Source of the DNA: a virus
Taxonomy: Duplodnaviria > Caudoviricetes
DNA: 42,182 bases
Reading direction: 5' to 3' (one strand)
Virus record (IMG/VR): IMGVR_UViG_3300043618_000036
Coordinates: 1-42,182 of that record
In this document: one piece after another, positions 3,854-7,095 of the stretch
Numbering within the stretch: position 1 is the stretch's first letter
How the letters are laid out: the number at the start of each line of letters is the position of its first letter
The notes under the pieces: generated by a model
What the model saw: the letters and a program-made list of their open reading frames with translations, nothing else
The model's database searches: none
Told to the model about the DNA's origin: nothing
Program-made: the position numbers and the translations under genes

Positions 3854-4153
3854 CTATCCGTGGTGTTCGCGGACCGCGTCGCGGATCCCGCGCAACTCTG
3901 CGGGGGTCATCGGGCCGCAGATCACGTTGATGCCCTCCGTGCGCATTTCCCGCAAGACTCCGAGGGCCTCCACCTCCTCCATCACCTGGTCGCAAGCTGC
4001 CTCCGAGGTGACGCCGGAGGTCGAAGCCCCCATGTAGGCGCCCAGCTCGGCACGGCCGTCGGGGTCGAGCAGCACCCGGGTATCCGCGCGCACAGCGGCG
4101 TCAGCGAAAAAGGCTTCCGCCTCAGGGCAGGTGTGCCCCGACGGCGCAGAAGC
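3854..4153 (-). pseudogene. Hypothetical ORF interrupted by the geosmin cassette; its 5' part probably lies at 7024-7090
   Basis: Removing 4154-7029 gives an open frame ...IIDKCSLYFAAAS-APSGHTCPEAEAFF...VREHHG*; no clear start codon found. Confidence 0.45.
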
Positions 4154-7023
4154 AGGCGTTGGCTTTGTAGGTGGGTCCTGACTCCAGTGGTAGGTGACTT
4201 CTGAGACCAGTGGAGTGGGGCGGATTTCACTGTCGGTGAGATTTGACTCCGCTGAGGGCCTTGCGGTGGGAGGATGCGAAGTGCGGACGGGCCCTTTCCC
4301 GGGCCGGCTCGCTCTCACCCCACGGATGCCGCCGAACCGGCCCCGGGCCGCTGCGACCACAGCTCGACGATGCGTGCCGCCGACGTGCCGATGCCGGTGG
4401 GGCCCATCCACTCGGGCGCCGCCGGGGTTTCCAGAGCCGGCGGCGCATTGTGCCGCAACAGGTCCGACTCCTTGTAGCGGTCGCATGCCTCGTGCCAGGT
4501 GAGGATGCCGGACAGCCAGTTCTTCAGCTCCTCCGCATACCCCATCAGCACCTTCCTGGCCTCTGCGTCCAGTGCGAACTCTGCACACAGGTCAGGTAGT
4601 TCACTCGCGAGCACATGCTGGAACTCGGCCATCCGGGCGGCCATCAGATCGACCACCACGTCCCGTGCCTGTTCGATGCTGCACTGGAGGAAGTGCTGCA
4701 CCACCACCACGCCGTTGTGCATCTCGCCCTCGAACTCGACCTCCTTCTGGTACGAGAAGAGGTCGTTCATCAGGGCCGCGTAGTCCATCGCGGAGCGTTC
4801 CATCGACAGGAAAGGACGCGACCGGTAGATCTCGGCCGGCAGCGTGTTCCCGTGCGCGAGCCGGCAGAGGCTCATCGTCACGTCGGAGCCGAAGGTGAAG
4901 CGGCGCATCTCGATGTAGTCGATCGGGTCGGGCACCCGGTCCTGCGCCTGATTGGCGAGCTCCCACAGCCAGCTCGCCTGCATGTCCTCGACTGTCTTGC
5001 GGAACGCCCGCCGCGCGTCCACCGCCATCGGCACCGCCGTCCGCACCCACAGATCGGCGAGTCCCCGCTCCAGCGGGGTCACCGGCGTGGGCATCGGCTC
5101 GTCCTCCACCGGCATGAAGAGCGAAAGCCGGTCGTTGGCCGCCTTGGCCCCGGCCAGGTCCAGCGTCCGCCCGTAGATCACCGGGAAGAGGTCGTCGCCG
5201 TACGTTCCCCAGGCCACCCAGCCCGAGCTGAGGTCCAGCTCCGCGAGCCCGGCGTCCGGGTGGATACCGGCCGCGAACAGGGCCATGTCGTAGTCCCGGA
5301 TCTTCTCCTCGTTCCAGACCTCGGAGCCCGGGACTCCCGGGACGCCCTCCAGAATGCCCATGCTGTGCGCCCACCGGACCACGTTCTCCCTGGCCGCCTC
5401 CAGATGCGGGCTCAGCTTGGCCGTGAAGGGCATGCCCAGGTCCGGGATGTCGAGGTGGCCGACCTTCTCGAAGCGGTGCACCGCCACGTTCTTCTCCCGG
5501 GCCCTGATGCCGACGGCGAGAGAGGCGAGCAGCTGGGAGGCGGAGGTGCCGAGCCCGGTCGGACCGCCGAGCGCGTACGAGGCGGGGTCGTGCGCGGCGT
5601 CGCCCGCACCGTTCATGTAGCGGCTGGAGTGCAGATGCCACTCATGGCCGCCGGACTGCCAGTCCTGCAGCCCCCTCACGAAACCCAGTACGTCCAGCCG
5701 CTCCTGCGGCCCAATGGCGAACTCCGAGAACAGCGGCTCCAGCTCGGTGAGCACGGTCGTCTCGAACTGCTGGAGCCGCGAAGTGATGAGGTCGTTGACG
5801 GTCTCGGCCGCCTCCTGCGTCGGGCAGCCCAGGAAGGTCTCCATCACCAGGACGCCGTTGGAGAGTTCGCCCTCGTCGAGGATCTCGCGCTCGTAACTGA
5901 ACAGGTCGTTGCGCAGGTGCATCGCGTCCGAGAAGGCGTCCCGCAGCACGCACATCGGGCGCGACGCGGCGATCCGGGCGGGAACCTCGGCCCCCGCCAC
6001 GTACTCGACGAGACCCGCCGACCACAGGGCGCCGCCCACCTTGCGGCGCATCTCGATGTACTCGATGGGGTTGGAGATGCGGCCCTCGCTGATGTTCATC
6101 AGCTCCCACATCGACTCTTGGAGCAGGTGCTCGGTGGAGACCGCGAACCGCTGGCGCCAGTCCTCGGACATGGCGGGGCAGGTGCGCTTCCACAGGTCGG
6201 CGAGACCCGCCTCGACCGCGTTCGTCGGCACGGGCATCGTCGCCCCCGCCGCCACCGGCATGTACGCGGGCAGCCGGTCCAGGTACTCCTTCGCGCCCAC
6301 CATGTCGGGGCTGCGCTTGTACAGCTCCACGAAGTGGTCGTCGAAGAAGAACACCCACACGTACCAGTCGGTGACCAGCGCCAACTGCTCGGCCGTGCAG
6401 TCGGGATGGGTGTACGCGCACAGCAGCGCGTAGTCGTGGCTGTCGAAGTCGTGCTCGTCCCAGATGTCCGAGCCCTCGATCATGACCATCTCGCGCGCCC
6501 ACGCCTTGGAGTGCTCCCGCGCATGCTCCAGATGGGGATTGAGCCGGGCCGGATGCGGCATGTAGAACTCGGGGAGCCTGAAAGGTTGGGGCATGACGGA
6601 GGGGCGCCTCTCTTGATCGACAGCGTTTGACCCGCTTCACGCTAGGCATAGGGCCCCGCAGATGGCTGCGACCCCGGGCGATCACCACCGAAGTGGCTAA
6701 TCTCCGCCCGGAGCCGGTTAACGATCTTGTACGTGGTTCAGAGGCATGCCTGTGCGTGAGGGGCGGCTCAACGCTCCCTGGCCCACACCACCTTCAGCTA
6801 GGCCCGCGCTCTGTGCGCCTCCCCCAAAAACCTCAAAGTACATCTGGACACCCGGCAGACTCATCGTCCAACCCTTGGCGCGTCATTGCCGAGCAGCAGC
6901 ACCCAACAGGACCTGCCAGGTGGAGTCAGTTCTCACCTACCAAACTGACCTCCCCACTCGCCAAGTGGAGTCAGAACGGCCCTACAGATGGAGTCGGATG
7001 ACACCTACGAAGCCAAGGCGTCG
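4154..7023. mobile_element. Non-autonomous 2870-bp cassette carrying geosmin synthase; ~100-bp imperfect inverted ends, each with three 20-bp sub-repeats; flanked by direct repeat AGAAGC
   Basis: Consensus GTAGGTG-N4-CTGACTCCA at 4167-4186, 4190-4209, 4232-4251 and inverted at 6921-6940, 6966-6985, 6989-7008; AGAAGC at 4148-4153 and 7024-7029. Confidence 0.8.
4315..6594 (-). CDS. geoA: Germacradienol/geosmin synthase (bifunctional class I terpene cyclase, 759 aa)
   Basis: PARLNPHL start, [12 protein letters not shown] and [10 protein letters not shown] in domain 1; YGDDLFP and NDLFSYQKE in domain 2. Confidence 0.95.
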
Positions 7024-7095
7024 AGAAGCGGCGGCGAAGTACAGAGAGCATTTGTCGATAATGCCACGCAGCCGACAGTGCTTCCGTGGAGGTAG

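What the first reader, a model, noticed from the sequence alone, without database searches (positions are those of the whole stretch)
4148..7029. Geosmin synthase on a transposase-less mini-element with unusual multi-repeat ends, inside a prophage
Seen: a complete geoA is the only clear gene between ~100-bp imperfect inverted ends. Each end has three copies of GTAGGTG-N4-CTGACTCCA, with the outer two 23 bp apart on both sides. AGAAGC flanks both ends, and excision rejoins an open reading frame. The ends lack TG..CA termini and the outer repeat is 13 versus 15 bp from the direct repeat, so I cannot assign a family. Inference: these are recombinase or transposase binding arrays used in trans, possibly tyrosine-recombinase arm-type sites with a 6-bp crossover. 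That would make this a mobile unit for a volatile-producing enzyme.
Basis: partly seen in the sequence, partly recalled or inferred. Interest (0 to 1): 0.88.

Follow-up and report, generated by a model that had tools for sequence, protein, structure and literature searches.

The report
Geosmin gene hitchhiking in a phage
A phage, likely of soil Streptomyces, carries a full-length gene for a predicted geosmin synthase (the enzyme behind the smell of wet earth) between the two ends of an IS21-type jumping gene that lacks its own transposase and likely borrowed one to get there, which would give this gene a viral route between strains.

Summary
The element is real, but its edges and family were misread. 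It spans 4160-7015, starts TG, ends CA and is flanked by a 6-bp target duplication (AGGCGT). AGAAGC is a chance repeat inside the target gene. Removing the element at these edges rebuilds a gene whose first 18 residues match an uninterrupted Streptomyces homologue exactly. The ends are those of a Streptomyces IS21 lineage: repeats sit at identical positions in 9 of 9 istA-istB-bearing relatives, all of which carry passenger genes, and transposase-free sisters carry other cargo. So this is a non-autonomous IS21 cassette (MIC), not a tyrosine-recombinase unit. Its cargo is a chromosomal geoA with the whole native upstream region, inserted between the tail and lysis genes of a siphovirus. No terpene synthase was found in 50,697 GenBank phages or in two IMG/VR scans. 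The GeoA is a mosaic of two Streptomyces allele types, and a second, chromosomal-type copy lies in the same soil sample. Against a benefit: one case only, no expression data, and changes at five otherwise invariant residues. Known mechanism, unusual cargo and vehicle.

The parts
4154..4159 (.). Left copy of the 6-bp target-site duplication AGGCGT
   Evidence: right copy at 7016-7021; empty-site match to P0123
4160..4284 (+). IS21 left end (IRL): terminal TG, transposase-binding-type repeats at 4167-4186, 4190-4209, 4232-4251; likeness to relatives stops about 15 bp short of where istA starts in them
   Evidence: 70-76 of the first 100 bases identical to 8 istA-istB-bearing elements
4315..6594 (-). 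geoA, predicted germacradienol/geosmin synthase, 759 aa; metal-binding motifs in both domains (DDHFVE 85, NDLFSYERE 229, RY 325; DDLFP 467, NDLFSYQKE 610, RY 706); mosaic of two allele types
   Evidence: (NF041168 at 1161 bits, just under its 1200 cut-off)
6595..6799 (-). Captured native upstream region of chromosomal geoA, ending in the last nine codons and stop (6797-6768) of the upstream chromosomal acylase gene
6800..6911 (.). 112 bp of unassigned origin between the captured chromosomal piece and the right end
   Evidence: no convincing match in the loci held
6912..7015 (-). IS21 right end (IRR): repeats at 7008-6989, 6985-6966, 6940-6921; terminal CA at 7014-7015
   Evidence: 75-80 of 100 bases identical to 8 istA-istB-bearing elements
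7016..7021 (.). Right copy of the target-site duplication AGGCGT
3854..4159 (-). 3' part of the interrupted target gene (small hypothetical protein, 111 aa when rejoined; homologue P0123 has 141 aa)
7022..7051 (-). 5' part (first 10 codons) of the interrupted target gene
7096..8427 (-). CBM4/9 + GH6 glycoside hydrolase at the end of the tail module; marks one side of the variable slot
1574..2332 (-). Amidase-LysM endolysin; lysis module on the other side of the slot

Best explanation
This is a 2,856-bp non-autonomous IS21-family cassette (4160-7015) that carries a full-length chromosomal-type geoA with its native upstream region and that likely entered the phage by a transposition event catalysed in trans by IstA and IstB of a related element. 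Shown: TG..CA termini, three repeats per end at the same positions as in istA-istB elements, a 6-bp target duplication, an interrupted target gene with an intact homologue, and cargo that matches a chromosomal geoA locus from inside the gene's tail to the last codons of its upstream neighbour. Inferred: (1) an element of this lineage, whose members routinely carry passenger genes between istB and the right end, picked up the geoA region and lost istA-istB by internal deletion; (2) IstA bound the two outer repeats at each end, nicked at the CA, and with IstB joined the cassette to a target with a 6-bp stagger, in the variable slot between tail and lysis genes; (3) at some stage the gene recombined with a second geoA allele, which left it a mosaic; (4) a lysogen would hold a second geoA under a chromosomal-type promoter. 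Most likely the gene is a passenger, redundant with the host's copy and under weakened selection, not a selected phage trait.
For: Termini and duplication; hits begin at the same base. Family: ends bound annotated istA/istB in two plasmids; NCBIfam IS21 transposase and IstB above cut-off; repeat starts 8/31/73 (left) and 8/31/76 (right) in the phage cassette and in 9 of 9 istA-istB-bearing elements; duplication of 6 bp in 7 of 16 and 7 bp in 1 of 16 two-ended relatives. Sisters: 4 of 16 have no istA/istB match at all, 3 of these with a duplication (L012 MerR regulator, L017 ML-domain protein, L021). Empty site: P0123, 18 of 18 residues across the joint. Donor locus: G225 matches 4341-6799 at 82% and continues into an acylase gene and an acyl-CoA ligase, with no end motif; contigs in 4 of 4 runs laid match up to 6799 and then leave into one shared other sequence. 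Contigs with 0 differences bridge both junctions at flat depth 12-15. IS21 ends with 23-bp-spaced repeats, terminal CA and need for two repeats: PMC10122671 (passages). Mosaic: 111 informative sites fall into 20 runs, 0 of 10,000 shuffles as few.
Against: No partner istA-istB is known in the phage's host, whose genome is not held; the nearest autonomous ends are only 70-80% identical, so cross-mobilisation by those very proteins is untested. 8 of 16 two-ended relatives show no duplication. Only one copy of the geoA cassette was found, so it is not shown to have moved more than once. The capture route is not shown and 112 bp are unassigned. Against 'mere passenger': no stop or frameshift, all metal-binding motifs kept, pairwise dN/dS 0.27 against G225, though that spans mostly pre-capture history. 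Runs X1 and X2 may be the window's own source sample, so they argue against mis-assembly but are not independent biology.
Confidence: 0.9

Rival explanations
1. Same origin, but geoA is a selected phage accessory gene (moron): it is expressed in lysogens, raises or alters volatile terpene output and so helps spores carrying the prophage to be dispersed or protected.
For: Intact frame and motifs; the complete native upstream region is kept; it sits in the slot where related phages hold different genes (3 of 3 syntenic relatives L060, L061, L065); geosmin is linked to spore dispersal in PMC13739066 (passage).
Against: One case; 0 matches in 50,697 phages and none confirmed in two IMG/VR scans. 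Nearly all Streptomyces already have geoA (PMC6604706, section 10) and a second copy is in the same sample. Nine changes at columns at least 95% conserved, five at columns invariant in 123 of 123 homologues, against a median of 3 and a 90th percentile of 8.
Confidence: 0.2
2. Tyrosine-recombinase element: repeats are arm-type sites and AGAAGC is the crossover core.
For: AGAAGC flanks both ends and a frame stays open when one copy is removed.
Against: That frame lacks the homologue's N-terminus (alignment score 395 versus 453); relatives share the ends only from TG inward and have unrelated flanks; the adjacent genes in autonomous relatives are istA-istB.
Confidence: 0.01
3. The repeats are regulator boxes of geoA, or the arrangement is an assembly chimera.
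For: The record is from a soil sample that holds a second, similar geoA, which breaks contigs inside the gene.
Against: 0 of 93 other geoA loci (642 kb) carry the motif at up to 2 mismatches. Both junctions lie inside single contigs with 0 differences in two runs, and the duplication plus interrupted gene cannot come from mis-joining. A residual doubt concerns only the middle of geoA: 4988-5555 was covered by short or collapsed contigs, so some bases of the mosaic could be assembly mixing, although pieces 5556-5899 and 6085-6353 match the window exactly beside a distinct second allele (33 and 35 differences).
Confidence: 0.03

Closest known systems
Mobile insertion cassettes (MICs) and transporter ISs (PMC3129680, passages; the prototype MIC231 of Bacillus cereus is recalled and also named in earlier scan notes)
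   Same: Passenger gene between IS ends, no transposase, target duplication, autonomous relatives with the same ends.
   Different: Ends are IS21-type (multi-repeat, IstA plus IstB) rather than IS231/IS4-type (recalled); cargo is a one-gene secondary-metabolite pathway with its native upstream DNA; the landing site is a phage.
IS21 family, e.g. IS5376 (PMC10122671, passages)
   Same: Terminal CA, direct repeats 23 bp apart, each made of two conserved blocks; istA-istB in autonomous members.
   Different: 6-bp duplication (5 bp for IS5376); a third repeat 42 bp (left) or 45 bp (right) further in; 9 of 9 two-ended istA-istB-bearing members found carry passenger genes, each mostly different, so the lineage behaves like a cargo transposon.
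Streptomyces coelicolor-type germacradienol/geosmin synthase (PDB 5dw7, 5dz2) and chromosomal GeoA of a small Streptomyces clade (P0002-P0011, 78-87%)
   Same: Two-domain layout, metal-binding motifs, both encapsulin-loading-type peptides.
   Different: Phage-borne; mosaic of P0002-like ends and a P0003-like middle; five substitutions at otherwise invariant positions; activity untested.
Phage-encoded biosynthetic gene clusters (bioRxiv 10.1101/2020.10.01.322628, passages)
   Same: A small biosynthetic unit in a probably temperate phage.
   Different: That survey assigned 99.3% of prophage clusters to bacteriocins; here the cargo is a volatile-terpene enzyme delivered by transposition.
Streptomyces phage Gilgamesh and IMG/VR relatives L060, L061, L065
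   Same: Tail genes followed by a CBM-GH6 hydrolase (69-76% DNA identity); in the three IMG/VR relatives also the lysis genes.
   Different: Their slot after GH6 is under 1 kb in the three IMG/VR relatives and holds other DNA; none has the cassette or the target gene.

Membership tests
IS21-family ends | TG...CA termini | tested here: met
IS21-family ends | At least two direct repeats per end, 23 bp apart | tested here: met
   starts 8 and 31 at both ends; criterion from PMC10122671
IS21-family ends | Short target-site duplication | tested here: met
   6 bp here and in 7 of 16 relatives, 7 bp in 1 of 16, none in 8 of 16; a 4-8-bp family range is recalled
IS21-family ends | Same ends bound istA (DDE) and istB (AAA+) in autonomous members | tested here: met
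   NF033546 and NF038214 above cut-off
Autonomous IS21 element | Encodes IstA and IstB | tested here: not met
   geoA fills the element; left-end likeness stops before the istA start
Mobile insertion cassette (MIC) | Passenger gene between intact IS ends, no transposase | tested here: met
Mobile insertion cassette (MIC) | Inserted as a unit by transposition | tested here: met
   duplication plus interrupted gene with intact homologue
Mobile insertion cassette (MIC) | Mobilised in trans by a cognate transposase in the same cell | not testable with these tools
   host genome not held; no second end of at least 80% likeness listed in the sample's contigs, a weak test
Tyrosine-recombinase (att-type) element | Core repeat restored once on excision, recombinase linked to the ends | tested here: not met
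Geosmin synthase (GeoA) | Two class I cyclase domains with Asp-rich, NSE and RY motifs | tested here: met
   criterion from PMC6604706
Geosmin synthase (GeoA) | Converts FPP to germacradienol and geosmin | not testable with these tools
   five changes at invariant columns leave this open
Inducible prophage | Integrase and att sites, complete virion module | tested here: inconclusive
   head, tail, lysis genes found; no integrase among the ORFs scanned (about 65 of the 215 listed); the record ends inside the phage's early region

The most novel reading that the evidence does not exclude
A temperate Streptomyces phage has acquired a working geosmin synthase through a cargo-shuffling IS21 lineage and keeps it as a lysogeny trait that changes the host's volatile signal; phage plus cassette are the vehicle by which geoA alleles move and recombine between Streptomyces lineages, with this mosaic gene a transfer caught in the act.
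Probability: 0.2. Interest if true: 0.85.

Novelty: new variant of a known kind. Interest (0 to 1): 0.55.

Why it matters
Martin-Sanchez et al. (PMC6604706, section 10 read) inferred horizontal transfer of geosmin synthases among Streptomyces from tree conflicts, and asked why strains with two copies are rare, suggesting quick loss or homologous recombination with the resident copy. No vehicle was named in the passages seen. This record shows one: IS21 ends, a phage, and a mosaic geoA with a second allele in the same sample. It makes the question testable with one lysogen. It is also the only phage-borne terpene synthase in the collections searched, and it exposes a low-copy Streptomyces IS21 lineage (8 of 401 family genomes) that shuttles very varied cargo. 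The mechanism class itself is known, and benefit to the phage is not shown.

Tried and rejected
Tyrosine-recombinase reading and AGAAGC as the duplication: rejected. Regulator boxes: rejected. Tn552/Tn7-type transposase, first suspected from recalled 23-bp repeats and 6-bp duplications: dropped when the ends proved tied to istA-istB. Other phages with the cassette or its ends: end-pattern scans of IMG/VR gave 1 unrelated low-GC match and 0; IstA scan 0 confirmed of 4; GeoA scans 0 of 4 and 0 of 58 candidates; these tools warn that the window's own record and very near ones may be left out. Empty site in phages: 0 of 27 candidates; found only as protein P0123, whose DNA context I could not see. 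Metagenome GeoA loci: best 80 of 333 were only 55-65% identical. Close chromosomal donors: 0 of 401 (strict cut-off), 1 of 337 scored (G225; 64 not scored), no further one among 30 relatives. The IS21 homologue in G225 (68% to IstA) has different ends, so it is not the partner. Contigs laid showed no empty-site joint or circle joint; contigs drop rare variants, so this is no evidence of absence. No RNA holder listed. Promoter scan: 0 sigma-70-type sites, uninformative for Streptomyces. Cluster mates P0127/P0128 of the GeoA are unrelated 56-aa sequences. Literature: searches listed no paper whose title or abstract start describes a phage-borne geosmin or terpene synthase or this IS21 lineage; the library lacks most subscription papers and bioRxiv supplements, including the cluster lists of the phage-BGC survey. 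ISfinder could not be consulted.

Full report
Setting. The window is a whole 42,182-bp virus record. It encodes terminase, portal, scaffold, major capsid, tail tube, tape measure, minor tail proteins and an amidase-LysM lysin, all on the minus strand. After the tail genes comes a CBM4/9-GH6 hydrolase shared with Streptomyces phage Gilgamesh and six IMG/VR contigs. In three of these (L060, L061, L065) tail-GH6 and lysis genes are syntenic with this phage and the slot between them is under 1 kb of unrelated DNA; here it is 4.3 kb. The host is inferred to be a Streptomyces from these relatives and from the cargo. Prophage status is likely but not shown: the GeoA is on record on a 67,619-bp contig, contigs run 8.7 kb past position 1, and no integrase was found among the roughly 65 of 215 ORFs scanned.

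Checking the observation. The geoA frame (4315-6594, minus) is intact, 759 aa, with two terpene-synthase domains and the S. coelicolor-type enzyme as best solved relative. The six repeats are real and unique in the window at up to 3 mismatches. Read inward from 4160 and 7015 the ends are TGGCTTTGTAGGTG and TGGCTTCGTAGGTG, 13 of 14 alike, and AGGCGT lies directly outside both; a 6-bp repeat at a fixed place has a chance of about 5 in 10,000. Plasmid matches begin at exactly these bases (8 of 10 left, 6 of 7 right). The test that decides is the empty site. Searching with the 3' part of the interrupted gene found one outside homologue, P0123 from Streptomyces sp. CA-294286. Both AGAAGC copies are simply part of that gene, 14 bp apart.

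What the ends are. In plasmids of S. canus and Streptomyces sp. NBC_00989 the same ends enclose annotated istA, istB and passenger genes. A pattern scan of GTDB genomes gave 42 loci, 41 from actinomycetes (some loci are two views of one element). Sixteen distinct elements (15 from that scan plus the S. canus plasmid) had both ends inside the fetched DNA; single ends and two longer candidates were left out of the counts. Nine of 16 carry istA and istB, several frameshifted or interrupted; representatives pass the NCBIfam IS21 cut-offs. All nine have repeats starting at 8/31/73 on the left and 8/31/76 on the right, as the phage cassette does. All nine have passenger frames between istB and the right end: DUF6518; STAS and DUF6221; hydrolases with an ArsR-type regulator; aldo-keto reductase; oxidoreductase with an ECF sigma factor; alcohol dehydrogenase with MerR; GDSL lipase; CMD with sigma factor. 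Three of 16 keep fragments of istA or istB and four have none; three of the four have target duplications (L012, L017, L021). Duplications are 6 bp in 7, 7 bp in 1, absent in 8. The geometry fits IS21 as described in PMC10122671 (passages): repeats 23 bp apart, terminal CA, two repeats needed for integration, 5-bp duplication for IS5376. The lineage is uncommon: 8 of 401 family genomes, including the two used as entry points, control pattern 0. The motif is absent from 93 of 93 other geoA loci.

Where the cargo came from. The closest GeoAs are ten clusters at 78-87%, then a gap to 67%. Genome G225 matches 4341-6799 at 82%; there geoA lies between an acyl-CoA ligase and a penicillin-amidase-family gene. 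The cassette holds the whole intergenic stretch and the last nine codons of that amidase gene, so the native promoter region likely came along. Contigs from 4 of 4 runs laid (three samples at most) match to 6799 and then continue in one shared sequence that is not the IS end. In runs X1 and X2, one soil sample and possibly the window's source, both junctions are bridged by contigs with 0 differences at depth 12-15, and a second geoA, about 85-90% identical in the pieces listed and of chromosomal type, is present at depth 8-20. It may be the host's own copy; that is not shown.

State of the gene. Among sites where P0002 and P0003 differ, the phage protein follows P0002 at residues 6-145 and 566-752 and P0003 at 199-539: 111 sites, 20 runs, 0 of 10,000 shuffles as few; two other pairings agree. 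Since P0002 and P0003 sit in separate supported groups of the tree, recombination in the phage allele's history is the simplest reading; when it happened is unknown, and assembly mixing in 4988-5555 cannot be fully excluded. Metal-binding motifs are intact and pairwise dN/dS against G225 is 0.27, mostly old history. Against full function: nine changes at columns at least 95% conserved among 124 sequences, five at columns invariant in the other 123 (P190L, V225M, Y305F, C440F, L460V); median 3, 90th percentile 8, maximum 14. This hints at relaxed selection without proving it.

Mechanism. Shown: the anatomy, the duplication, the interrupted gene, the shared ends with istA-istB elements, the chromosomal origin of the cargo. 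Inferred: capture by a passenger-carrying IS21 element, loss of istA-istB (left-end likeness stops about 15 bp before the istA start; geoA points toward the left end like many passengers), and insertion by IstA-IstB supplied in trans. The phage's ends are 70-80% identical to the autonomous ends found, so the exact partner is not in hand. Confidence 0.9 in the cassette reading; 0.2 that the cargo is a selected phage trait.

Comparison and novelty. Transposase-less cassettes moved by a cognate transposase, and ISs with passengers, are established classes (PMC3129680, passages), and unchecked notes of this scan report other IS21-ended cassettes, one in an actinomycete phage. What is unusual is the cargo and vehicle. 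tblastn found no terpene synthase in 50,697 GenBank phages; two IMG/VR scans confirmed none; a phage-BGC survey assigned 99.3% of prophage clusters to bacteriocins (bioRxiv 10.1101/2020.10.01.322628, passages; supplements not seen). Literature searches (listings only) showed no report of this. PMC6604706 (passages and section 10) inferred geoA transfer among Streptomyces and proposed recombination with the resident copy; this record fits that. The link of geosmin to spore dispersal was seen as a passage and reference title in PMC13739066; Becher et al. 2020 itself was not read. PMC9330008, PMC7371123 and PMC7251104 were searched for passages and added nothing used here.

Verdict. A real, cleanly delimited IS21-ended cassette; known mechanism class, new cargo-vehicle pairing, single case, function untested. 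Interest 0.55.

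Noticed in passing
window 3719-3842: A second copy of the last 124 bp of the GH6 gene (88% identical to 7103-7226, 86% to L060), so the slot looks like two tandem post-GH6 segments left by recombination between related phages.
   Followed up: partly
window 7096-8427: CBM4/9-GH6 cellulase-like gene at the end of the tail module, shared with Gilgamesh and six IMG/VR contigs: a conserved phage glycoside hydrolase.
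   Followed up: partly
window 4315-6594, residues about 344-351 and 732-740: The GeoA keeps both encapsulin-loading-type peptides; the first equals the minimal peptide GPTGLGTS of PMC13739066. No encapsulin gene is in the cassette or beside geoA in G225.
   Followed up: no
window 3854-4159: The target gene also lacks 31 codons present in homologue P0123, an in-frame deletion, so it may have been decaying before or after the insertion.
   Followed up: partly
L017 7001-7741: A 741-bp cassette with two left-type ends and a 6-bp duplication carries a single secreted-looking ML-domain (lipid-recognition) protein, a fold better known from eukaryotes (recalled).
   Followed up: no
L007 11376-13845 and L042 7607-10074: The same PLP-dependent decarboxylase plus TetR cargo occurs in two strains, once with istA-istB and once with only an istB fragment: an autonomous element and its reduced derivative.
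   Followed up: no
window 22200-23150 and 33000-33760: Dips in G+C (about 0.61) inside the head and tail modules suggest further inserted segments.
   Followed up: no
window 37019-39141: Two adjacent ParB-N-domain genes, one fused to a methyltransferase-like domain, upstream of the terminase.
   Followed up: no
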